Program-made: the position numbers and the translations under genes
Shown here: positions 43,046 through 62,309 of the stretch, piece after piece
Numbering within the stretch: the stretch's first letter is position 1
How the letters are laid out: each line of letters starts with the position of its first letter
Origin: Candidatus Bathyarchaeota archaeon
GTDB taxonomy: Archaea > Thermoproteota > Bathyarchaeia > Bathyarchaeales > DTEX01
DNA length: 64,000 bases
Direction: 5' to 3'
NCBI GenBank assembly: GCA_963714275.1
Contig: CAVQNT010000002.1
Location: 1-64,000, forward strand
Notes under the pieces: generated by a model
The model's input: only the letters and a program-made list of their open reading frames with translations
What the model was told of the DNA's origin: nothing
Database searches by the model: none

Positions 43046-43582
43046 ATGAAGCGTTATGAGATCCGCATCGCCGGATTCGGCGGGCAGGGGGTGGTGACCA
43101 TCGGCAAAATCGTGGGGTTGGCCGCTGCCCTTTATGATAAGAAGAATGCCGTGCAGACCCAATCCTACGGGCCAGAGTCCCGAGGAGGGGCCTGCAAGGC
43201 GGAGGTCGTTCTTTCCGACGGGGAGATCCACTACCCGAAAGTGCGCTCGGCGGACGTGCTGTTGGCTCTATCGCAGACCGCCCAGGATGTTTACCTTAAA
43301 GACCTGCGGCCGGGAGGTCTTCTGATCATCGACCCGCTGACGGTGGTCAAGGAGGCTCCCCGTTCAGACATCCGGGTAGTAAAAGTTCCCACCGCAGAGA
43401 TCGCCTTGCAGGTCGGAAATAAAAAATTCCAGAATATGGTGGCCCTCGGGGTCCTCTACCAGCTGACCAAGGTCATCTCCCGGGAGTCCCTGGAGAAGGC
43501 CATCGAAGAGACTATCCCCCACAAGACTCTCTCGCAAAACATCGAAGCTTTCCAGAAAGGGATTGAATATGTCCGGGAATGA
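43046..43582 (+). CDS. 2-oxoglutarate-type (Kor) oxidoreductase gamma subunit
   Basis: GFGGQG, QSYGPESRGG. Confidence 0.88.
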   Translation: MKRYEIRIAGFGGQGVVTIGKIVGLAAALYDKKNAVQTQSYGPESRGGACKAEVVLSDGEIHYPKVRSADVLLALSQTAQDVYLKDLRPGGLLIIDPLTVVKEAPRSDIRVVKVPTAEIALQVGNKKFQNMVALGVLYQLTKVISRESLEKAIEETIPHKTLSQNIEAFQKGIEYVRE

Positions 43583-44796
43583 TCATTCGGCCTTTGAGCC
43601 TTTGCTCACCGAAGAGGAAGCCAAGAAAGTAGTTCGTGGAGCGCTTCCCCCCGGGGATTATTATCTGTTCGGGAGCGACGCCTGCGTGGAAGGAGCGATC
43701 TTTGCCGGTTGCCGTTATTATGCCGGCTATCCGATCACCCCGGCCTCAGAAGTGATGGAGAAGGCGGCCGAGCGTTTGCCGCAGGTTGGGGGACGATTCA
43801 TCCAGATGGAGGATGAAATCGCCTCGGCTTGCTCCCTCATCGGAGCATCATGGGCCGGAGTCAAGGCCATGACGGCGACTTCGGGGCCGGGCTTTTCGTT
43901 GATGATGGAAGCCGTATCTTACGCCATCATGTCCGAAACCCCTTTGGTCATTGTCAATGTCCAGCGGCCGGGGCCTGGCCAAGGGTATATTACCTCTTCC
44001 CAGGAAGATGTCATGCAGGCTAAATGGGGCCACCACGGCGGTGGAAGCCTGATCGCTCTGGCACCCTCCTCGGTGCAAGAAATGTTCGATTTTACCGTCG
44101 AGGCTTTTAATTACGCGGAGAAATGGCGGGTACCGGTTATCCTTTTGGCCGATGAAACCGTGGCCCATATGCGGGAGAGGTTAACGGTCCGGTCAAAGGA
44201 AGAAATTAAGATTATTGACCGGGTAAGGCCTCAGGATTTGGCGATTCCTTACGAAAAATATCTTCCCTATGAAGGATACGAAGGAGATGTGCCGCCCATG
44301 CCCGCCTGGGGAGATGGCTACCGGGTAAACGTTGTAGGCTTGGTGCATCACCCGGATGGGAACGTCACCAAGTATAGCCCGGAGATGCATTTCGCTTGCG
44401 TGGAATCGAATCTTCCGGAAAATTGAAAACCATGCGGATGAGATCGCCCAGGTAGAAGGGTCATTCTTGGAGGGGTGCCGAAACCTGGTGGTGGCCTACG
44501 GGACCACAGCCCGTTCGGCTTCCGAGGCCGTCGAAGAGCTCAGGGCCAAAGGCCGGACAGACCTGGGCTTTCTCCGCCTGAAAACCCTCTGGCCTTTTCC
44601 GGAGAATAAGATCCGTTCCCTGGTTGGACAATTAAAAAATGTCTTCTTCCCGGAGATGAACCTGGGATTCATGCTCCATCCCTTGAAAGAGGCTTTACGA
44701 GACCGGGTTCAGCAATTTATCCCCGTTCCCTGCCTGGGACAATTGCATGCCCCCGATCAGATCATCGGAAAGATTGAAGAGGTCCTTGGAAAATGA
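43569..44796 (+). CDS. Kor-type oxidoreductase alpha subunit, frameshift near 44400
   Basis: GYPITPASE, QMEDEIAS, TATSGPGFSLM; the C-terminus LWPFP, EMN.G lies in ORF 44356-44796. Confidence 0.85.
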
Positions 44797-44870
44797 GTCC
44801 ATAGTCCATGGTCGGCAGTCTACGGTCTTGGATTGAGGTAAAGTGGGTTGTGGACTATCCACTGTGGATT
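44796..44870. repeat. Heptamer-periodic palindromic repeat (family B)
   Basis: AGTCCAT AGTCCAT GGTCGGC AGTCTAC ... GTGGACT ATCCACT GTGGATT. Confidence 0.75.
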
Positions 44871-44916
44871 CTTTTATCTTTACACTCTGCGTGATCCTTG
44901 GGTCGAAAGGATAGAA

Positions 44917-45741
44917 ATGAAACACCCCATGTTGCAATACCTGAAGGAGACCGGTATGTACGGAGACCGGTTTCCTACCATCTTTTGTCCAGGATGCGGC
45001 ATCGGCCAGGTACTGAACTACACCCTGGAAGCAGTGGATCACCTCGTGCAGAAAGACGGCATATCCCGCGAGCGCTTTTTCTTTGCCTCCGGGGTGGGAT
45101 GCTCGGCCCGTTTGACGTCCCATTACATGGGCTTCGATTCCATCTGGTCGCTCCACGGCAGGGCGCCGGCGGTGGCTACGGGCGCGCTTCTGGCCCGCCC
45201 AGAGTTGAAAGCCATCGTCTTCACCGGGGATGGAGATGTAGCGGCCATCGGCGGGAACCACTTTATCCATGTCTGCCGCCGTAACTTGGACATGACCCTG
45301 ATATGTATGAACAACGGCCTCTACGGGATGACGGGGGGGCAATCGGCCCCAACGACTGCCCGCGGAATCCCATCGACTACTTCCCCTTACGGGAACGTGG
45401 AGAATGCTTTTGATCTTTGCGAACTGGCCATTACCGCTGGCGCAAGTTACGTGGCCCGCTGGACCACGGTGCATCCCCAGCAATGTATTCAGGCCATCGA
45501 AAAGGGAATCCGCAAGAAGGGCCTGGCTTTCATCGAGATCATGACTCAATGCCCCACTCATTGGAAACAGGAACCTTCAAAGATGATGAAAAAATTTCGT
45601 TCCCAGGCGGTGCGTTTTTCGCCAGAAAAAGGAAAGGAAACTTTGAAGAAAGATCAATTCTGGGTGGGAGAGTTCATGGATAAAGACCAGCCGGAATGGC
45701 TGGAAACCTACCAGAAGATCATCGACCGGTTTCAAAAATAA
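44917..45741 (+). CDS. Kor-type oxidoreductase beta subunit
   Basis: CPGCG, SG.GC, LHGRA, GDGD..AIGGNH, YGMTGGQ..PT. Confidence 0.9.
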   Translation: MKHPMLQYLKETGMYGDRFPTIFCPGCGIGQVLNYTLEAVDHLVQKDGISRERFFFASGVGCSARLTSHYMGFDSIWSLHGRAPAVATGALLARPELKAIVFTGDGDVAAIGGNHFIHVCRRNLDMTLICMNNGLYGMTGGQSAPTTARGIPSTTSPYGNVENAFDLCELAITAGASYVARWTTVHPQQCIQAIEKGIRKKGLAFIEIMTQCPTHWKQEPSKMMKKFRSQAVRFSPEKGKETLKKDQFWVGEFMDKDQPEWLETYQKIIDRFQK

Positions 45742-49530: not shown

Positions 49531-50820
49531 TTATTTTTCTTCCGGTGGTCTGAGCGCACGAAAACTGCGGTAAAGTAGCAAGTCGTACACGATCTTCAGG
49601 CCGCCAGACAGGAAAAAAGGTACGCCCGCCAACGCTGCCTGAGCCAGTAATGGCCCCGTAAAGACCGGCGATAAAGATGCTCCAGTCGTGCGGGCAATGC
49701 CGGTTACCCCCGCCGCGGCCGAACGCTCATCCGGGTCCACTACGGCCATCGTGTAAGATTGGCGGGTAGGCACGTCCATCTGGGAGATGCTGAATCGCAG
49801 CAGCAACATCGTAATCGCCAGGGGTAGGTTGGGCATGAGGGGGACCAGGATCAGCAAGATGTTGGAGGGGATATGCGTAAATACCATCGTCCGAATCAAC
49901 CCAATGCGGGAAGCTACCCAGGCGGCAGATAATGCTGAAAGGCCAGCAAGGATGTTTGCTCCGAAGAAGATGCCGCCCAGCAACGCTGGTTGTACATTGA
50001 AGCGTACGTGGAACCAGTAGGCCACGATACTCTGGAGGACAAAGCCGCCGGCGAAGGCATCCAGCGAGAAGAGGGCGGAGAGTTTGAAAACAACTCTCCG
50101 CGACCGATGCAGACCAAGGCGGCCTTTCTTCGGCGGAGAAGAACCGGGTGGGCCGGCTTTTTGATATATTTCTACAACGGGCGAAAGTTTGGTGAATAAA
50201 AGCCCCAGGATCAGTCCGATGGCCGCATAGCCAATCACAATCACCCGGTAGCTTGACAGAGGCGCCAGGCCTGCACCCTGCGCAACCGCAGCCAGCCCTC
50301 CACCGCATAGCGAACCCAACGCCGTAGCAAAAGAACCGATTAGATTATACCAGGCAAAAACCTGGGTGCGCCGGTGGTCTTGAATAATCTGGGATAGCGC
50401 CGCCTGTTCAATGGACAAAAAGGGTCCGACTTCGTAACCGCTGGGGCTGATCACGCCGATGGTGGCTGCAATCAGCAGCAGCACGAAGTTGCGCGTCAGC
50501 GCGAATAATATTCCCGCGAAGACCATCAGGACTGCGCCGACGATGAGCATCCGCCTCCTCCCCATTCGGTCGGCTGTCGTAGTTATCCCCAGGGAAATGA
50601 TTGTGTCGCCGATCAGGGTCAGGGTGAGCAACAGGCCAATCTGGGTTTCACTCAGGCCAGCTTGGGCCAGATAGAGCATGAGCACGACGGACAAGAACCC
50701 ATAGGCAAACAGACGTGCGGTGCGGGTGATGAAAAGGAGACGGCCGTCAGGACTCAAGGCCCGAAGATCCTGAAATATACGTAATTTGAAAAGCATATGG
50801 GGGTTCCCTCGGAATCTCAC
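49531..50820 (-). CDS. MFS transporter
   Basis: ADRMGRRR motif A, many TM segments, QMDVPTRQSY. Confidence 0.88.
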   Translation of the reverse strand: MRFRGNPHMLFKLRIFQDLRALSPDGRLLFITRTARLFAYGFLSVVLMLYLAQAGLSETQIGLLLTLTLIGDTIISLGITTTADRMGRRRMLIVGAVLMVFAGILFALTRNFVLLLIAATIGVISPSGYEVGPFLSIEQAALSQIIQDHRRTQVFAWYNLIGSFATALGSLCGGGLAAVAQGAGLAPLSSYRVIVIGYAAIGLILGLLFTKLSPVVEIYQKAGPPGSSPPKKGRLGLHRSRRVVFKLSALFSLDAFAGGFVLQSIVAYWFHVRFNVQPALLGGIFFGANILAGLSALSAAWVASRIGLIRTMVFTHIPSNILLILVPLMPNLPLAITMLLLRFSISQMDVPTRQSYTMAVVDPDERSAAAGVTGIARTTGASLSPVFTGPLLAQAALAGVPFFLSGGLKIVYDLLLYRSFRALRPPEEK

Positions 50821-50983
50821 CTCATGAACTAGAAAGTCTGGCCGCGCGGGGACTTTTTCATAATTCTTTGTAAAGTTATTAGAGCTGGACTAGGAAATAT
50901 ATAAGGTGAATCCTGTATTTTATGAGGAGGGATTCCGTATTTTGAGGCTGGCGGGGATGAGATAGAAAAAAATAGATGTGGGA

Positions 50984-52327
50984 TCAGAGGTATTTCTCCA
51001 GGTTGATTTCTTGGTAGCCGGGGATAGAGATCGGCTTAAACTCCTTCTGCAAGCCACCCAAAGGGGCAGTGGCATCCATGCCCAATTTGGTCCCAACTCC
51101 CCCCGAACAGGATGGGTCGAGGAGGGAGCTTTGGGTTTTTGGGATGACCAGCAAATCGCGGTCTCCCTGAAATCGGGTAGCGATGGCCCATTCGACCTGC
51201 TCCATATCGAAGATGTCGATATCCTCATTGACCACGACTACGTGCTTGATGTCGGCATTGTTGCTCATGGCTGCGAGCATGGCCATACGAGCTTCCCCTT
51301 CGTTATCCTTGGCTAAGGAGATAATTAAATGATACCGACAGGTCCCGCCGAAAGTTAAATGTACTTGACGCACCGAGGGAACAGCCCGCTGTACGTCGGC
51401 CAGGATGCTGGCCTCCCGGGGAATAGCCCCCAGGAGAAGGTGTTCGCGGGACGCGGGAAGGATTGAGTAGAAAAGAGGGTCCTTCCTGTAGCAGATGGCC
51501 TTTAGCTTGAAGATAGGTCGCGGAGCCTCCGGGCTATAATACCGGGGGAATTCGCCGAAGGGCCCCTCCACTCTCGTTTGCGAGGGGTCAATGATTCCTT
51601 CGAGTACAATCTCCGAATCAACAGGGACTTCCACATCCACGCTGGCGCATCGTGCCAGCCTCAACGGAGATGAAGGACGCAGGGCATTGGCCACTTCCAG
51701 TTCATCGACGCCGAAAGGCAGAATCGCCTGTGAAGCCAGCAGGGTGAAAGGATCGACTCCGATGGCTACAGCCACCTCCAGGGGCTGTTGCATCTGAACG
51801 GATTCCTGCAGGCACAGATTTAGGTGGCGCGGGAGGATCAGCAAGCCTAGGAGGTTGTCGTTAAATACCCGGAGGCGATGGATGGAGGCGTTGCGAATCC
51901 CCGTTTCCGGGTCTTTGGCGACGAGAACTCCACCGGTGATATAAGGCCCGGCATCCCTTTCGTGGTAGGTGGGAATGGGAAAAATCTGCAAAGGGTTAAG
52001 ATTTTTGGTGAGCACATTCTCCTGAAAGGGGGCGCTCTCTCCCACCTCGCAGGGATGCGGATTTTCCATAGCTCTCCTGAGATTGGGGATAAAGTTTCCT
52101 TCGGCGATTTCCAGGGCCGCCGCCAGAGCTTTCCGGGAGAAGCAGAGATTTGTCACCAAGGGAATCGAATACCCCGAAACTTGCTCGAAAAATACACTCT
52201 TCTCTTTTTCCAGCTTTTTGGTGATGGCCCCGAGGACATATTGAGGATTTACCGGCTTGGGAATCCGGGAGAGCCACCCCTTTTTATCCCAGGTTGCCAA
52301 CCACGAACGGAAATTTTCCCCTACCAT
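50984..52327 (-). CDS. UbiD-family prFMN decarboxylase, HmfF (furandicarboxylate decarboxylase)-like
   Basis: D.GPYIT.G, N.SIHR, EIVLEG, EGPFGEFP.YY, EHLLLGAIPREA, GG.CRYH, EWAIATRFQ. The HmfF resemblance is from memory of the family, not a search. Confidence 0.85.
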   Translation of the reverse strand: MVGENFRSWLATWDKKGWLSRIPKPVNPQYVLGAITKKLEKEKSVFFEQVSGYSIPLVTNLCFSRKALAAALEIAEGNFIPNLRRAMENPHPCEVGESAPFQENVLTKNLNPLQIFPIPTYHERDAGPYITGGVLVAKDPETGIRNASIHRLRVFNDNLLGLLILPRHLNLCLQESVQMQQPLEVAVAIGVDPFTLLASQAILPFGVDELEVANALRPSSPLRLARCASVDVEVPVDSEIVLEGIIDPSQTRVEGPFGEFPRYYSPEAPRPIFKLKAICYRKDPLFYSILPASREHLLLGAIPREASILADVQRAVPSVRQVHLTFGGTCRYHLIISLAKDNEGEARMAMLAAMSNNADIKHVVVVNEDIDIFDMEQVEWAIATRFQGDRDLLVIPKTQSSLLDPSCSGGVGTKLGMDATAPLGGLQKEFKPISIPGYQEINLEKYL

Positions 52328-52344
52328 AAGGTTCCTTCTCCCTT

Positions 52345-53433
52345 CTAATCATATAGGGCCTGAGGAAGGTTAGAGAGCTTGGTATAGCCATGCGATTGAA
52401 TCACAATCTGATCTTCCACCCGGATGCCTCCAATCCGGCGGAGGTAAGCTGTGGTCTGAAACATGGCCACGACCATGCCGGGCTGCAAAACATCCTGGCC
52501 ATTTTTCAAAATGACTGGGAAAAATTCAGACTGGCGAAGACCGCTGCCGTATCCAATATCCGCTGGAATATAGCGGGCGTACCCATCCTCAGCCAGGATT
52601 CGCTCTGCTGCGGCGTAAACATGGCCGCTCAGAGTACCAGGCCGGGCAGCCTGAAAAGCAGCTTCCTGGGCCCGCAAGAGGATCTTTAAGAATTTCTTTT
52701 GCTCAGCCGAGGGCTTGCCCATGAACGCGGTCCGGCAAAGGTCTGATGAATATCCCTTATGCTTCGCTCCCAAATCAATCACTACCACATCTCTTTTACC
52801 GATCTTTCTTCGGGAGGCATAAGGATGGGCCAAGAGGGTCCTGGGACCGGAAGCCACCAGAGTGCCAAAGGCCACTCCTTCGCTCCCTGCTTTGCGCATG
52901 GCATATTCGGCCTCGGCAGCAATGTCGATCTCTGTGACTCCCGGCTTCACCGCTGCCAAGGCCGCTATCATTCCCGCTTCCGCCATGGCCATCGCTTTCT
53001 TGAGGTAACGGATTTCCTCCGGGGTTTTGATGGCCCGCATCTCATCCAGGGCACGGGTAATCGAAACAAAATTAACCTGAGGAAAAGCGCCCTGGAGGCT
53101 CTCCAGGATTCGGGCCGTCATATAGTCTTTCTCGATGCCGATAGAGCGGGGAGGATTCAAGTTTTTCCGGATCAGACCGGTCATTTTCTCGGCCATGGAG
53201 GATTCCGGAAACTGGTAGCCCTCGACTCTTTGAAGGGAACTCTCCTTCTTCACTTCGGAACCATCCAGCCAGATACAAACTTGAATGGGCGGAGAATCAC
53301 GAAAAATCAAGAGGCCCGAGCATACCGGGGCAGATCCTGACAAGTACATAACATCATGGGGTTTCAGGACCACGGAAACATCAATCCCCTGGCTCTCCAT
53401 CCAATTGCGAAACTGTTCGATTTTATCGTTCAT
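52345..53433 (-). CDS. M24 peptidase/creatinase-fold protein
   Basis: R.IK..EEI, PG.TE, D.G...GY.SD..RT, GG.RVED; canonical GHG.G appears as GYGSG and the EPG motif is absent. Confidence 0.8.
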   Translation of the reverse strand: MNDKIEQFRNWMESQGIDVSVVLKPHDVMYLSGSAPVCSGLLIFRDSPPIQVCIWLDGSEVKKESSLQRVEGYQFPESSMAEKMTGLIRKNLNPPRSIGIEKDYMTARILESLQGAFPQVNFVSITRALDEMRAIKTPEEIRYLKKAMAMAEAGMIAALAAVKPGVTEIDIAAEAEYAMRKAGSEGVAFGTLVASGPRTLLAHPYASRRKIGKRDVVVIDLGAKHKGYSSDLCRTAFMGKPSAEQKKFLKILLRAQEAAFQAARPGTLSGHVYAAAERILAEDGYARYIPADIGYGSGLRQSEFFPVILKNGQDVLQPGMVVAMFQTTAYLRRIGGIRVEDQIVIQSHGYTKLSNLPQALYD

Positions 53434-53477
53434 CCCCAAACCCCCTGTTTGGCAAATTGTTGCGAAATAGGATTATT

Positions 53478-53763
53478 GTTAAGATGCAGAAATTGGCGTA
53501 ATAAAATCGGTTCCAGGGTCCGGAGGCCAATGCGATTCGCTTGGCATCATAAGGCACTGGTTTTTCCATGGATAGGGCCGGAAGATGCACCCAGCGTCCC
53601 TTTGCGGACCCCAATCACCGTCTTTGGGTAGCCTTTTTCCCGGCCGATGCTGTCCCGCCATGGCGGGACTCATCGCCTTGGCCCCCCGACATCGGCACGG
53701 GCAGTCCCAGACAAAAAGAATGATCCATGATCCGCACTTTTTTATAGCGCCAATTTCCTTAAC
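53478..53763. mobile_element. Putative MITE-3 inside the operon
   Basis: Inverted ends GAAATTGGCGTAATAAAA (53489-506) / TTTTATAGCGCCAATTTC (53740-57), 16/18 matching; internal palindrome GTCCCGCCATGGCGGGAC; no credible ORF. Confidence 0.6.
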
Positions 53764-53787
53764 GAAGTACTAGATAAAGAATTTCCC

Positions 53788-54630
53788 TTAAGGGGTTTTG
53801 ACTACATCGTAAGTCAATTCCAGCCAAGGAGCGTCCAGGATGGCGGCTCCAATATCCAGGATGTCCACCCCTTTTTCCGCCAGCGTGGGAATCTCCTCCA
53901 GCTTGATCCCCCCGGAAAAAGCAATTTTTGCTTGACGGGGAGTTCCCTTTTCCTTTAAGACCTTAAAGACATCCTCCAAGTCTTGCCATGAGCCCGTATC
54001 TACCATCAGGATCTGCGCCCCGAGGTTGATAGCCTGTTGGGCTTCTTCAGCGATGGGCGAAAATTCTCCCCGTAATTGGATGACCTTGAGCAGGGAAGAA
54101 GAGGATACCGCCTGGAGCGTCCGGGAGATCCCTCCAAAGATGCGCACATAATTTTTATCCAGGTAGATGAAGGGTTCCTCGACGATGCGATGGGCAATCC
54201 CCCCGGCAGCCACTGCCTCCCAGATGTTCTCTTTGATTGGAAAAGGGTGCTTCTTCCATCCGCCACTGACCAGGCGAATTTTTCCGGCAGCAAGCCTTTT
54301 GGCTCTTTGCGCAGCTGAGGCTATGCCTGAAGGCTTGGCGATCAGGCCGATTACCAGGTTCTCGAATTTGACGATTTGCTCGGGTGTTCCCACGAACTGT
54401 CCGATCTCTTCGCCTTCCGCCAAAGCTTCCCCGCTCTGTTTCTTCCAGCTGGCGTTAAGTCCCAGCGCTTCGGCTGCCCTTTGCGCAAAAGGAATTCCGG
54501 CTACCGATCCGGAATCTTTGGAACGTAAAAATGCTTTCAGACGACGATCTGAGATGCTCTGAAAGATTCTCGCATAGAATGGATCTTCTATTACCCAATC
54601 GGTAATGAGCGTATCGTACCCCTTCATCAC
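53788..54630 (-). CDS. Quinolinate phosphoribosyltransferase (NadC/ModD)-like protein, divergent
   Basis: G..AG, SGIA..A, GG..HR, I.M.D, SGGI, GVD....GA; canonical TRKT and KDNH appear as GWKK and DKNY. Confidence 0.75.
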   Translation of the reverse strand: MMKGYDTLITDWVIEDPFYARIFQSISDRRLKAFLRSKDSGSVAGIPFAQRAAEALGLNASWKKQSGEALAEGEEIGQFVGTPEQIVKFENLVIGLIAKPSGIASAAQRAKRLAAGKIRLVSGGWKKHPFPIKENIWEAVAAGGIAHRIVEEPFIYLDKNYVRIFGGISRTLQAVSSSSLLKVIQLRGEFSPIAEEAQQAINLGAQILMVDTGSWQDLEDVFKVLKEKGTPRQAKIAFSGGIKLEEIPTLAEKGVDILDIGAAILDAPWLELTYDVVKTP

Positions 54631-54658
54631 TGGTTATTCACCCGAAGGATTTCGGCCG

Positions 54659-55555
54659 TCATCCATGCGCTCTCCATTTTCCCCTCAAGGCGGAAGCGAT
54701 ATGCTCGGCCATTTGCTTTTCGTCCCATCCTTTGTCCAGGCCCTCAAGAAGCTGGTCGAGCCCTATCTGCACCTCCCGGGTGGGTCCCGGCAGAGCAACG
54801 AGCCAGGAGATTCCCAATTTCCCCACGGCGATCCGGACCCCGTCTTTGACGTGCCTCCCTGTTCCCGGCTCGAATTTCACGATATAAGGCGTGGCCGCAG
54901 ACGGATCTACCCGGAGCAGACCTTCGACGGTGCAGTCTTTCTCTTCCGCTCCCACGCCTCCAGAGGTAAGGATGAGCCCGAATCCCTCATCCAAGGCTCT
55001 TTGCAGCCGGTAGGCGATGGTCCCAACATGATCGGGCAACACGCCCCCAGGATAAACTGTATAACCCTCTCTCCTGAGGCGGTCTTCGATCAAAGGGAAA
55101 TTGGTATCTGCGATCAAACCTTTTTGCACCTCAAATCCCGTGGAAAAAACGATCGCTCTTCTGGCCACTCGTCTGCGGATCTCCTCTCCCATCTGCTGAG
55201 CTTTTTCCAGGGCTGGTCCATAATCAGTTTGGTCTAGGCAGACCCAGCCCAGAGCGCCCTCCGAGTGCAAAGAGGCTTCCTCGGAGAGGGTAACCCCCGG
55301 AACCTCTGCGACCCGCCGCAAGATCTCCTGACCCTTCCCGGCGATCTGGCTGGCCTTGAGAATTTGGCGGAGGATATCAAGAACAATGTGGTCATCCCGT
55401 ACATCCACCACCAGCACTTCATTCGGTTCGAGCTCCAGAACCCCGGCTACCTGATGGGCGATGTCGTCGAGGCGAGCATTCTTAAGGGAGATACCCTTGA
55501 TCCAGAGCTCGGTTTTTTGCAGAAGATTGATTTCCAGATCTTTTTCTTTGTCCAA
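54659..55555 (-). CDS. Molybdopterin-binding (MoeA/MogA/CinA-type) domain protein with an N-terminal extension
   Basis: STG.EV..G.I.DTN, LPD, TSGG.G....D.T, LPGP. Confidence 0.8.
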   Translation of the reverse strand: MDKEKDLEINLLQKTELWIKGISLKNARLDDIAHQVAGVLELEPNEVLVVDVRDDHIVLDILRQILKASQIAGKGQEILRRVAEVPGVTLSEEASLHSEGALGWVCLDQTDYGPALEKAQQMGEEIRRRVARRAIVFSTGFEVQKGLIADTNFPLIEDRLRREGYTVYPGGVLPDHVGTIAYRLQRALDEGFGLILTSGGVGAEEKDCTVEGLLRVDPSAATPYIVKFEPGTGRHVKDGVRIAVGKLGISWLVALPGPTREVQIGLDQLLEGLDKGWDEKQMAEHIASALRGKWRAHG

Positions 55556-55604
55556 AAATGTGGTCTTTCTTTTTCCTTGCCTCTCCGGTAAGCCGCTAAG
55601 CCTC

Positions 55605-56591
55605 TTAAGGCATCCAGCCCTTCTCTTTAAAATATTTCTCCGCCCCGGGATGGAGCGGCAGGCCCAGGTTTTCTGGTTTCCATCCCACCTGGGGTTTGAA
55701 CGGCTTCAAACCTGCATGTCCCTTGGACAGGAATTCCTGGTTGTCGCAGATGATCTTCGTCACTGCATATGCCTGCTCGTTGGACAGTGCGTCCGTAGTA
55801 ATCAGCGAGGTGGTGGTCCCTACGGTCGGTATTTTTGTGTTCTGCCCCTTGAACGTCCCGGCGGGAATGGATGCCGGGAACCAGCCGAATCTCGTAAGTT
55901 TTTTGATGACTTCATCGCTGAGTCCGATGAAGGTCACATCGCAGGTAATGGCAATTTCACTCATCGCCGGGTGGCCGGCCGTAACCACCTGCATAAAGAG
56001 ATCGGCCTGGGCCTCCATAAGCATCTTCGAAATCACACCGAAAGAAGTATGAGTGACCTTCCCGCCGAAGGATTCGATGTCCTTGTAAGTAGCACCGATA
56101 GCTTCGGTTATCTGCCGGTTTGCAAACTCCCCCAGGCTTCCCCGGGTGACCGTCACCAGGTGGATGGGCATTTTTTTATTGGGGATATCGGGGAGAGAAG
56201 TGATTTGGGATTTCCGGGTAACTACGATGCCGACGTAATATTCGTCAAACCCTCCAATTAAACCTCGAAGGTTCGTCATTTTTTTATCGTAGGCCACATG
56301 GCCATCGAAGGCCCATCTACCCGTAACCGGGAAACCAAAACCCAGCTCTGAATCCCCTTTAGAGACAAGGTTCATGTTACCCACCCCTCCGGCGTAAGGG
56401 AGGACGTCGATTGTAGAGCCTTTCGGCAACTCTTTGCGCAGGATGTTCGCCATCAGGCCCCCATATACATACCAGGAGCTTCCCAATTCCAAGGTGGCGA
56501 TTCTCAGTTTTTGCGGCTCCAGGGCCCAAGAAGGTTGAACGGTAAGAATGAAAAATGCCATTAAAATGAAAATGATTTTTCCTTTCATCAT
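55605..56591 (-). CDS. TAXI-family TRAP substrate-binding protein
   Basis: Signal peptide, IAT...G..WY..G, GG..N, IPAGT, PLHPGA.KY..E.G. Confidence 0.88.
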   Translation of the reverse strand: MMKGKIIFILMAFFILTVQPSWALEPQKLRIATLELGSSWYVYGGLMANILRKELPKGSTIDVLPYAGGVGNMNLVSKGDSELGFGFPVTGRWAFDGHVAYDKKMTNLRGLIGGFDEYYVGIVVTRKSQITSLPDIPNKKMPIHLVTVTRGSLGEFANRQITEAIGATYKDIESFGGKVTHTSFGVISKMLMEAQADLFMQVVTAGHPAMSEIAITCDVTFIGLSDEVIKKLTRFGWFPASIPAGTFKGQNTKIPTVGTTTSLITTDALSNEQAYAVTKIICDNQEFLSKGHAGLKPFKPQVGWKPENLGLPLHPGAEKYFKEKGWMP

Positions 56592-56669
56592 TTCCTCCTC
56601 TTTTCCTTCTTAAAAGATTTTCCCTGCCTTAATCCAGTGATTCGGTAAATAACCCGCGTCATAATCCTA

Positions 56670-57489
56670 CTAAGCAAATTTCATCTTCACATCTCCCAGA
56701 AGCCCAAAATCAGCCCGGATGAAATCTCCGGCGCCACCGGCACCGCCGCGGTCAGGGACCCGGAGAGAATTACTTCTCCTTTGCGCAGAGTGATTCCATA
56801 AACCGCAAGCTTGTTGGCCAGCCAAGCTACGGCTTGGGCGGGATGGCCGAGGACTGCAGCCCCGGCTGCAGTGGCTACTACCTCGCCATTCTTCTCCAAA
56901 ATCATGCCCACGGTACGGAGGTCTAAAGCCCAGATCGGGGTGAGGACTCCCCCGAGAACGATCCGGGCGCTGGAGGCATTGTCGGCCACGGTGTCTGGAA
57001 GCTTGATCTTCCAATCTACGATCCGGCTGTCGATGATCTCCAGGGCTGGAATCACCCCTTCGCTGCATCGGATTACATCCGTCAGAGTGATCCCTGGCCC
57101 TCTCAGGTCTTCCTTCAGTACGAAAGCCAGCTCCCCTCGATGCGTGGTTGAATCAGGTCTTTGGCTGGAATCTTTTCTCCTTCCATCACCACCATTCCAT
57201 CCAGGATGTGACCATAGTCTGGCTCATCCACTCCGAGCATGGCCTGCATGGCCCGGCTGGTGATGCCGATTTTCTTGCCAACCACCACTTGGCCGGAGCT
57301 CTTTTTCATTTCCATGACTTTAAGCTGGATGCGGTAGGCATCGTCCACGGAAATTCCCGGGTCCGATTCCGTGAGCGGAGAAACAGGCTTCCGGTTTTTC
57401 TCAGCCGCCAGCAGCATTTCGGCCAAAGTTTTCATCGTCGACTTTTCAATCCATGGGTGCCCATAATTCTTTTGAATAGGACAATTCAT
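56670..57489 (-). CDS. 2-keto-4-pentenoate hydratase / 4-oxalocrotonate decarboxylase (MhpD family), two frameshifts
   Basis: DAY.IQ, G.KIG.TS.AMQ..LGV.EPDYG, PRIE, PALEIIDSR, ADNASS, LGHP..AV.WLAN; indels near 57135 and 56730. Confidence 0.85.
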
Positions 57490-57505
57490 TTCCCCTTAAG
57501 CTTTC

Positions 57506-58954
57506 TCAGGCCACTTGTTTGAGGATTTTTAAGTCAATATTTCTTTGCGCCAACCATTTGGGCATTAAAATCTTATCCACCCGTTCATTCACTTGCGAAG
57601 CGACCTGGCGTAGATGATCCGCCAGCGATCGGCTGACATTTACGCCCCCCGTAGCCCCATCGAAAATGATCACCTTGTCCGATTTTGTCGTACGGTAGGC
57701 GAATTCCATAGCCGTGGGCAAATTTTCTGACAGAAGGGCATGCTTCATATAATTCAGATTCATGGGGTCGCGGTTGAAGAGTTCTGCTTGTTCTCGGCCC
57801 ACCATGATGGTTGGCGTGTGTTCAGCAAAGAAAGTGGCTGGATAGCCTGTCCAGGCATAGTTGTGTACGACCATTTTAATTGCCGGGTTAACCGGTGGGA
57901 TGTCCGGAATCAATGGCCGGCCCCGATCATCATAGAAGGTCTCTGTATACCAGGTATATGGGGGTAGGGGGTTATCCAGGTCGAAGAGGTCTATGTTCGC
58001 ACCGACCATGTTGGCATAAATGACCCCTGCGGCAAATACGTAAGGCACCGGGCAAGGAAAATCCAGAATGACGATGCATTCATCAATGGCACTGAACAAG
58101 TTGATGATCTTGCCGTAATACTTCATTCCTCCCACGGTGGTCCGATTGTTGATGGCATACAGATCATTGTCGGCATCGATGGTCACAACCCCTGCGGGGG
58201 ACATAATCATAAAAATGGAGAACCCGTATTTGCTCTGGACGAATTCAGAATCGAAAATGGCCCGGGCCACGAAATTAGCCGCTCGGGGCCCCATATTCAT
58301 GTGGTAAGTAGAACGGGTTTCAGCCCGAGCATAGCTCATGCCAAAAGGCTTCACGGCCCGGTCCACCTGACGATGGAAATGAACCTCCCGCACGTCGCTG
58401 TTATGGGCATGAATGATCACATCGGCATCATAGGCCTGGCGAAGCCCGTAGAGGGTTCCCAAACAGGTCTGGATGGGAATACCGGCGTCGATGGGGGCTA
58501 TCCCTAAGGCTTTGCCTTTAAAATACTCATCCAGACCGTGGGCCTTGATATATTCTTCGGTTTCGCGGAAGCGCATTCCCAGACCGGCTCTCAGCCGAAC
58601 TTCCTTAGCCGGGGTTTCCCGTTCCACGATATCTTTGATCGTGCGGAGCATCTCGGCGTACGGTTTCCCTCCCAGAAATGTGAAACCATGGTGGGAGGCC
58701 AGAATGTTGACCGTGTTTCCAGGTTTGATCTTGGAGAAATCCACCCTGGCCAAGTGCGGCTTCAGTCTTTTCACGGATGACATTTTCCCCCTGGCCATCG
58801 GGGTAGATGACCTTTGGCATATCCGGAATCAATTCCTTCAAGGAGACGCTCGTCATTCCTTCCAATTCTGCACCTCGCCGGGCGACATATTTGGGGTCCA
58901 CCCCATACTGGGATGGGCGAGGGCTGGCAGGGGGAATGGTTTCTAGGCATACAT
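57506..58954 (-). CDS. Conserved-looking hypothetical protein (~480 aa), possibly a remote LarA/DUF362 fold; 5' part frameshifted
   Basis: GGAGG SD before ATG 58954; pieces in ORFs 58605-58901 and 57506-58798; His-rich motifs ASHHGF and ADVIIHAHNSDVREVHFHR. Confidence 0.65.
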
Positions 58955-58988
58955 AGTGGCTACCTCCATGGGTTAAAGGTTATGAACC

Positions 58989-59604
58989 TCAGGACTTTAT
59001 GGGGGTGTTGACGATGCGATCCATGAGTTCACGGTCCTCAACAAAACGAAAAACGGGATGTTTTCTCTTGATCTCCGGCAGACACCTCCCAGACTGTTGT
59101 GGTTCGACCGTACCACTGATAAGCTTTCTTTGCGCCGTTCCGGGCCGAAAGCCGGCAGCCTCCAGAAAACGCTGGATCGGTTGGTTGCATTCGATCCCGC
59201 ATCCGGCCCCGATACCCGTCGCCAGAACCACAGCATCGGGGGTTTTGGCCCCGGCTAAAATGGCCGCAGCCAATTCTTCGGCCCGGCTGGCCGAACAGTA
59301 ACAAACCACCTGTTTGGGATGAAAACGAGCCTTGCGGCACAAAGCCTCGATTTCCTTATATTCAAACTGAGAAACATCGGTTTTAAAGGTATATGGGTCA
59401 CAAGGAATCATATTTATGGCATGCTCCGGACAACGTTGTTGACAGTTCCAACATCCGACACATCTATGGAGGTCGATTTCTACCCGGGGCTTTTCCGTCT
59501 TCTCTTCTGACTTTAATGGCATAAACCGGGCAAACCATTTCACAAGTTTTACATCCCTTGCAGAGCTCGTTGTTCACCTGGGCATGAACGCTGACGACTT
59601 TCAT
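58989..59604 (-). CDS. 2x[4Fe-4S] ferredoxin fused to a BFD-like [2Fe-2S] domain, frameshifted
   Basis: CKGCKTC...CP, CVGCWNC...CP, VCYC...GCG.EC; AGGAGG SD before ATG 59604. Confidence 0.8.
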
Positions 59605-60424
59605 TCCCCCTCCTTTCTCGCAAATTTTCGTTGAAGCCCAATCGCCGGGATATTTCCTGGGTTGTGTTTTTGACCATGGCAATGAGGGTTTCCACGTTCT
59701 TCTCTTTGATCCGATGGGCGGGCCCGGAGATGCTGAGGGCCGCGATTTCTTTTGAGAATAATCGAAGATAGGGGCTGCTACGGACATTAGACCTTCGCTG
59801 AACTCTTCGTTATCCAGGGCATACCTTGAGCCCGAATTTGAGCAAGGGCTTCCTTAGGGTTTCAGGGTCGGTGATAGTGTGGGAGGTGAACTTTTTGAGG
59901 GGCTTTTTTTTAAGAAAAATATTTAGTTCTTCGAGGGGATAGAGAGGCCAAGAGAACTTTACCGACACCGGTGCAATGAGCCGGAAGCCTCCCTCCAACC
60001 CGTGTTCCGATCCGCAAACTCTGAGGGCTTTCCACTTTATTAATATAGACGATTTCAAAATCATCCATCACCACCAAATGGATGGTTTCTTTCACTTTCT
60101 TATCTAACTCTTCCATGAATGGATGAGGGCCTCTTTTTGCAGGTCCATTTGAGATGCAACCAGTGATCCGAGTTCAAACAGGCGCAGCCCCAACTTATAC
60201 TTTCGGTTTTCTGCATTCTTTACCAGGTAGCAGTGGTTTTCCAAAGTGGAGAGGATCTTGGAAACTGTGGATTTGTTGATGCTCAGATCTTTACTGAGTT
60301 CTGTGACCCCCCATTCGGTACGGTTTCCATCGAAGCGGCTAAGGATATTCAATGCCTTTTCCAGCACTAAAATTGTGGAGGATGATTTTTGATCGGCCTT
60401 GAGTAAAGCGGTTTGAGGCAGCAT
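59601..60424 (-). CDS. IclR-family transcriptional regulator, several frameshifts
   Basis: LEKAL.IL, GVTELS..L...KSTV..IL.TL HTH; ET.HL, IVYI.KVES, HCTGVGK.LL, GYALD.EE. Confidence 0.85.
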
Positions 60425-60428
60425 TTTG

Positions 60429-60463
60429 GTTTCTATATAAGAAACACAAATTCTTATTAAGAA
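60429..60463. promoter_or_regulatory. Two palindromic operator candidates
   Basis: GTTTCTATATAAGAAAC (60429-45) and TTCTTATTAAGAA (60451-63) between the promoter and the IclR start. Confidence 0.6.
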
Positions 60464-60465
60464 GC

Positions 60466-60494
60466 ATTATATGGAGGGCGATTTTTAGTGTCAA
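60466..60494 (-). promoter_or_regulatory. Consensus sigma70 promoter of the IclR/UbiD operon
   Basis: Exact TTGACA-17-TATAAT on the minus strand. Confidence 0.85.
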
Positions 60495-60656
60495 CAAGAA
60501 AGTCGGGCGAGAATACGTTGTAAATAGACATGAGTAAATTGTCGAATTAGGAGTAAAATGGGTTCTTCGTGGGATTCCTGAAGGACGGATTGCAGTAAGC
60601 TAAAGCATAAGTGAACCAACAAGCGAAAATCCATTGGCGGTTCGTAAATAAAATAA

Positions 60657-61598
60657 TCATCCTCGGTCCTCTATCGCTCTCTGGGCATTTTCAAGGCGTG
60701 CCCTTTCTTCACGAAGTGCCCGATGAGCCTCTTCCAAGGTTACAGATTTAAAATGCAGACTTTCACCAGGCATGACCTGCGCCAGGATATCTAAATCTGC
60801 AGAGATGATATTTGCGATCTTAGTATAACCCCCGGAGACCTGCGCATCCCAAAGCATAATGATGGGCATTCCATCTCCCGGAACCTGGATGGCGCCACGA
60901 GCAATCGATTCGGAAATAATATCGGCACCCTTCACATGCTCGATTTTCGGCCCCTCCAGTCTGTAACCCATGCGGTCTGATTGCGAACTTACGGTGTATT
61001 CTGATGACAGAAAGGTCTCCAACCCCTGAGAAGTAAAACGGTCTTCTTGCGGGCCAAGGAGAACACGCAAGGGCTTTTTATCGGAGAGGATAGGGATTAG
61101 ATCCGCGGGCAAAGGCTTGAGGCAGGGAGGCCTTAGTCCATCACCTTCAGTCTCCAGGGTGTCCCCGGCCTTCAAGGGATTGCCCATCAGGCCGCGGGCA
61201 AAGACCGACCGGCTGTTAAGAAATTTCGGCCCGTCAAATCCACCCCGCACCGCAAGGAAAGCCCGAAAACCCAGTTTCCTGGCTCGGAATGAGATCCGGT
61301 CCCCTCTCTGTATGGAGACAGCCTGCCACATGGGAAGAGGAATTTTATTGAGCGCCGGAGAAAGATCTCCTCCTGTGATGGCAATAAATAAATCCCCCAA
61401 CGCCAGGAGTTCCAGTCGGAAAAGAGTAGTCTCCAGCACAGCCGCGCCACTTGAGTTTCCGACTAAGAGGTTGGCGATCCTGGCTGAAAAACTACCCGCC
61501 ACTCCAGAGCCGGGAATTCCATATTTCATGAATCCCGGCCGGCCCAGGTCTTGAATGGCGGTAAGAATTCCAGGGTTCAAAACCTCAAAGGCCTTCAC
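60657..61598 (-). CDS. pxpC: 5-oxoprolinase subunit C / KipA-type carboxyltransferase-domain protein
   Basis: QDLGRPG, AN.LVGN, SDRMGYRL.G, GAIQVPGDG.PII, GGY.KI. Confidence 0.88.
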   Translation of the reverse strand: MKAFEVLNPGILTAIQDLGRPGFMKYGIPGSGVAGSFSARIANLLVGNSSGAAVLETTLFRLELLALGDLFIAITGGDLSPALNKIPLPMWQAVSIQRGDRISFRARKLGFRAFLAVRGGFDGPKFLNSRSVFARGLMGNPLKAGDTLETEGDGLRPPCLKPLPADLIPILSDKKPLRVLLGPQEDRFTSQGLETFLSSEYTVSSQSDRMGYRLEGPKIEHVKGADIISESIARGAIQVPGDGMPIIMLWDAQVSGGYTKIANIISADLDILAQVMPGESLHFKSVTLEEAHRALREERARLENAQRAIEDRG

Positions 61599-62309
61599 AG
61601 AAAATCCTCCGCTCGCCGTCCTTTCGCCCTCAAGGCTTCCTCTTCGGATGCAGGGGGGAATAAAACTTCATCCCCGGCCACAAAGGGGATGGGGGGAAAG
61701 ATCTGCGGATTATAAAGAATCACAAATGTCCTTCCAATATAATTGAAGCCCGAAGGTTGATCGGTGGCGATGGCATTTGCTTGGCCGCCGGCAAACCCCA
61801 CTGACCCTCCGGGAACAAGGGTTCGCGGGGTGGGCAGGCGGGGCACCCGAAGCTTGATCCGGGAGTCCCCCGAGGTAAGCCAACCCACAGATAAATCCGA
61901 TGAAGTAAACTAAAAAATGCGTTTTTGAAAAAACCTCAATTACTTCTTCAGGGGGCAGACACAAAATTTCGGAGACCCGCTGCAGGTCCGGGCCATGGGC
62001 CCCACCATAAACAGTGGGTAGCCGAAAAGTGCGTCGGGCCGGAAGATCCATGTTCCTCGCCCTTCCCAGATATATTTTTATTTTCTCCAGGAGGGCTTCA
62101 TACTCTATCTCCAGAGGGTCGTAGGTCACCATCAAGGTTCGATATGCTGGAAGAACTTCATTGATCCCAGGAAATCGTTCGGCTTCGATGGTCAGGGCTA
62201 AGGAACGAACAGCCCGGTTGACCTCGGGGTCGATTCGATTGTCGAACTCCACCAGCACTGCGCTGTCCCCGGAGGGACGGATTTTGGGCCACTCGGAAAT
62301 GTCATTCAT
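61595..62309 (-). CDS. pxpB: 5-oxoprolinase subunit B / KipI-type protein, frameshift near 61860
   Basis: GDSA.LVEF, P.Y, YGG.HGPDL, GF..G.AYLGGL, PR..VP.GSV. Confidence 0.85.

What the first reader, a model, noticed from the sequence alone, without database searches (positions are those of the whole stretch)
50984..60494. IclR-controlled operon joining an HmfF-like UbiD, a remodelled QPRTase, a molybdopterin-domain protein, an unknown His-rich enzyme and a composite ferredoxin: candidate undescribed anaerobic heteroaromatic-acid pathway
Seen: nine co-oriented genes downstream of an exact TTGACA-17-TATAAT promoter and two operator palindromes, in the order iclR, ferredoxin, unknown, MhpD-type hydratase, TAXI SBP, molybdopterin-domain protein, NadC-like, M24-fold, UbiD. 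Established: UbiD enzymes with EHLLLGAIPREA/CRYH-type motifs resemble HmfF, the 2,5-furandicarboxylate decarboxylase, and MhpD-family enzymes act on ring-opened 2-oxo-dienoates. The aerobic Trudgill-pathway partners (furoyl-CoA synthetase HmfD, Mo-dehydrogenase HmfABC, HmfE) are absent from this window. Inference: this gene set matches no pathway I can name and may encode O2-independent uptake, decarboxylation and ring opening of a furan- or pyridine-type dicarboxylate, with 2-oxoacid products feeding the nearby oxidoreductases.
Basis: partly seen in the sequence, partly recalled or inferred. Interest (0 to 1): 0.85.

Follow-up and report, generated by a model that had tools for sequence, protein, structure and literature searches.

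The report
Conserved anaerobic operon with LarA-like reductase
The nine genes are real and belong to a gene set conserved across anaerobic bacteria; its "unknown" enzyme has the fold of nickel-dependent lactate racemase and is predicted to dock onto an iron-sulfur partner, which suggests an undescribed oxygen-free way to break ring-shaped acids.

Summary
All nine genes lie on the minus strand in the stated order, behind the only perfect TTGACA-17-TATAAT in the region and two palindromes. As written, iclR, the ferredoxin and the hydratase carry frameshifts. Contigs from four wetland metagenomes differ by an indel at the ferredoxin and hydratase sites, so these are probably assembly errors.

The "unknown His-rich enzyme" has a divergent LarA (lactate racemase) fold. 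It always sits beside the composite ferredoxin (25 of 26 related loci, 15 of 15 paralogue copies). A complex of the two is predicted with score 0.93 against controls of 0.00. In four paralogue loci the ferredoxin lies in one open frame behind a GltD-like NAD(P)H/FAD module, so I read the pair as a reductase.

The MogA/CinA-like protein was found in 12 of 401 sampled genomes, all 12 among the 13 that carry the LarA-like gene. The NadC-like gene lies beside it in most loci and is single-copy in four of five genomes checked, where the reductase pair has 2-4 copies. The UbiD is a close relative of P. thermopropionicum HmfF, but UbiD, the M24-fold protein and the TAXI protein are variable accessories.

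No characterised pathway matches. The substrate (furan-type or pyridine-type acid) is inferred. The window also sits in a probably chimeric 80-kb contig end.

The parts
60466..60494 (-). Sigma-70-type promoter, TTGACA-17 nt-TATAAT
   Evidence: a 12-of-12 match, the only perfect one of 7 sites in 50800-60800. Also seen by eye.
60431..60463 (.). Two operator-like palindromes (60431-60443 and 60451-60463) with a TTCTTA/TAAGAA half-site, between the -10 box and the iclR start
   Evidence: inverted repeats I1-I3.
59606..60424 (-). iclR regulator, interrupted by at least 2 frame changes in the window sequence. The 3' end is approximate.
   Evidence: HTH_IclR scores 42.6 bits in 60104-60424. tblastn with the intact L003 IclR gives HSPs in frames -1, -3, -1. 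The L003 orthologue has HTH_IclR plus IclR_C.
58989..59604 (-). Composite ferredoxin with 2x[4Fe-4S] and a BFD-type [2Fe-2S] domain. The window sequence has 3 frame changes. Orthologues are 203 aa.
   Evidence: Pfam Fer4 and Fer2_BFD. Cys pattern in alignment A7. Indels against L012 and L001 and against metagenome contigs at 59491, 59140, 59122 and 59075.
57506..58798 (-). The N-terminus is uncertain: contigs of two of four runs lack one base at 58750.
   Evidence: No Pfam, NCBIfam or PDB sequence hit. AF2 model with pLDDT 69.8. Foldseek ranks 1-15 shown are all LarA family, best E 4.6e-8. VIA-align Z 15.9-12.8 for 5 LarA-type chains, next Z 7.9. Predicted complex with the ferredoxin.
56670..57450 (-). 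MhpD/HpcG/4-oxalocrotonate-decarboxylase-family hydratase, with 2 frameshifts in the window sequence. Orthologues are 260 aa.
   Evidence: PF01557. The L012 orthologue scores 204.8 bits to HpcG, 189.8 to NahK, 188 to 2-oxopent-4-enoate hydratase and 166 to MhpD. Frameshifts. Contigs carry an extra C behind 56731 (runs X1, X7) and behind 57132 (run X7 only).
55605..56591 (-). TAXI-family TRAP solute-binding protein, with no cognate fused permease beside it in the window
   Evidence: TIGR02122 at 167.7 bits and PF16868. Related TAXI genes occur in 4 of 26 loci.
54659..55555 (-). Two-domain protein: an N-terminal part (1-128) with no sequence match found, and a MogA/MoaB/CinA-N-like C-terminal domain (130-278)
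   Evidence: PF00994 at 56.4 bits. Model pLDDT 81.5. VIA-align Z 13.2-15.3 to Mog, MoaB, Cnx1G and CinA. Found in 12 of 401 genomes, all also carrying the LarA-like gene.
53788..54630 (-). NadC-like type II phosphoribosyltransferase-fold protein, not a NadC equivalog
   Evidence: QRPTase_N and QRPTase_C. TIGR00078 scores 102 bits, below the 198.4 cut-off. Aligned to human QPRT. Family invariants in A6.
52345..53439 (-). M24-fold (prolidase/creatinase-like) protein with substitutions at two or three positions that I recall as metal-ligand or catalytic positions
   Evidence: Pfam. In the alignment to P. horikoshii prolidase 1wy2 (190 bits), GHG reads GYG, HE reads SE and the IEPG stretch reads FQTT.
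50984..52327 (-). HmfF-type UbiD (prFMN-dependent) decarboxylase
   Evidence: Three UbiD Pfam domains. TIGR00148 at 365 bits. PtHmfF 6H6V scores 476.7 bits over residues 4-447 against 3-447.
49531..50820 (-). MFS transporter directly downstream on the same strand, probably part of the unit
   Evidence: MFS-type NCBIfam hits below cut-off. An 82%-identical gene lies directly upstream of the ferredoxin in L001.
60657..62309 (-). PxpC (60657-61598) and a frameshifted PxpB-like gene (61598-62309) upstream. Possibly associated, since L012 also has them upstream.
   Evidence: TIGR00724 at 277 bits. CT_C_D. tblastn frames -3 then -1. L012 has PxpC at 68.6% identity.
43046..45741 (+). Three-subunit 2-oxoacid:ferredoxin oxidoreductase (alpha subunit frameshifted), a frequent neighbour of the module elsewhere
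   Evidence: POR, POR_N and TPP_enzyme_C. 84-90% identical to the L012 copies. An OFOR gene cluster lies in 10 of 26 related loci plus the window.

Best explanation
This is an IclR-controlled catabolic operon. Its host is a bacterium close to genome G003 (Thermodesulfobacteriota-type), not the organism with which the contig is binned.

Shown by the calls:
- The core is conserved: ferredoxin, LarA-fold protein, NadC-like protein, MogA/CinA-like protein, and usually an MhpD/HpcG-type hydratase.
- The HmfF-type UbiD, the M24-fold protein and the transporters are variable front-end parts.

Inferred mechanism:
1. A furan-type (five-membered heteroaromatic) dicarboxylate is taken up by the TAXI, MFS or Tct transporters.
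2. The HmfF-type prFMN enzyme decarboxylates it to the 2-carboxylate.
3. A two-protein reductase then acts. The LarA-fold subunit holds a pyridinium-nucleotide (nickel-pincer-like) hydride carrier. That carrier is reloaded through the docked 2x[4Fe-4S]+[2Fe-2S] ferredoxin, or in paralogues through a fused NAD(P)H/FAD GltD-like module.
4. The hydride goes to the ring carbon next to the heteroatom. The ring opens to 2-hydroxypenta-2,4-dienoate.
5. The MhpD-type hydratase hydrates that product.
6. Aldol cleavage, aldehyde oxidation and 2-oxoacid:ferredoxin oxidoreductases finish the breakdown.
7. The single-copy NadC-like and MogA/CinA-like proteins make or install the nucleotide cofactor for all paralogous reductases.
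For: Conservation:
- 26 loci encode the LarA-like protein at 46-88% identity.
- Of these, the ferredoxin is present in 25, the NadC-like gene in 21, the MoCF gene in 20 and the hydratase in 20.
- Four of the five loci without a NadC-like match are short or end just past the LarA-like gene (L005, L010, L022, L026). L003 is a full-length locus with neither NadC-like, MoCF nor hydratase match.

LarA fold:
- Foldseek ranks 1-15 shown are all LarA family, best E 4.6e-8.
- VIA-align gives Z 15.9, 15.4, 15.2, 14.9 and 12.8 with 302-322 residues aligned; the next hit has Z 7.9.
- H130, H142, K150 and H166 are invariant in 21 of 21 orthologues and paralogues.
- The K150-x15-H166 spacing equals that of the LarA lysine that tethers the cofactor and the histidine that binds nickel (alignment print; residues named in PMC12611868, passages).

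Redox role:
- An Fdx match lies next to 15 of 15 LarA-like copies in 13 paralogue loci.
- The predicted complex scores 0.93 (median of three runs), with the best of 3 controls at 0.00. That mark is reached by 58 of 80 solved complexes and 2 of 110 mismatched pairs. The runs agree in at least 88% of contacts, and the partner pLDDT is at least 90.
- The interface joins the loop carrying H166 to the BFD cysteine loop.
- In 4 of 4 long ORFs tested (L037, L043, L044, L045) the ferredoxin-like part lies in one open frame behind Fer4_20 plus Pyr_redox_2.

Helper role of the NadC-like and MoCF genes:
- MoCF occurs in 12 of 401 genomes, all 12 among the 13 of 401 with the LarA-like gene.
- Copy numbers for LarA-like: NadC-like: MoCF are 4:1:1, 3:1:1, 3:1:2 and 2:1:1 in four genomes.

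Furan link:
- The UbiD scores 476.7 bits to PtHmfF and keeps H296, R304 and R331.
- PMC7976604 (passages) calls the HmfF histidine key to specificity for furan-type substrates.

Downstream logic:
- DmpF- and DmpG-type genes directly follow the hydratase in L019 and L021.
- OFOR genes lie in 10 of 26 loci plus the window, and AOR genes in 5 of 26.
- In L016 a UbiX gene directly follows the UbiD.
- LarC occurs in 5 of 5 module genomes checked, and a UbiX-sized flavoprotein gene in 5 of 5.
Against: - Nothing has been assayed. The substrate and the ring-opening chemistry are my inference.
- Pfam Lar_N does not match the LarA-like protein at E <= 0.01.
- The profile comparison with LarA homologues has only 4.7% probability.
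- The monomer model has pLDDT below 50 across residues 140-174, the very loop in question.
- H140 is not invariant, and no equivalents of LarA's two catalytic histidines were established.
- LarC is in 362 of 401 sampled genomes, so its presence says little.
- NadC chemistry points to a pyridine substrate rather than a furan.
- The C-N hydrolase-type genes hint at a nitrogen-containing substrate: the M24-fold protein (8 of 26 loci), PxpB/C (window and L012) and an FmdA/AmdA-family gene (L001).
- UbiD is near only 9 of 26 loci, and in 4 of those it is only about 31% identical.
- The hydratase was found in 0 of 13 paralogue loci.
- The hydratase's best solved match is the C7-acid enzyme HpcG, not MhpD.
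- L003, a 21-kb locus, has the ferredoxin and the LarA-like gene but no NadC-like, MoCF or hydratase match.
- PtHmfF's physiological substrate is unknown to me.
Confidence: 0.35

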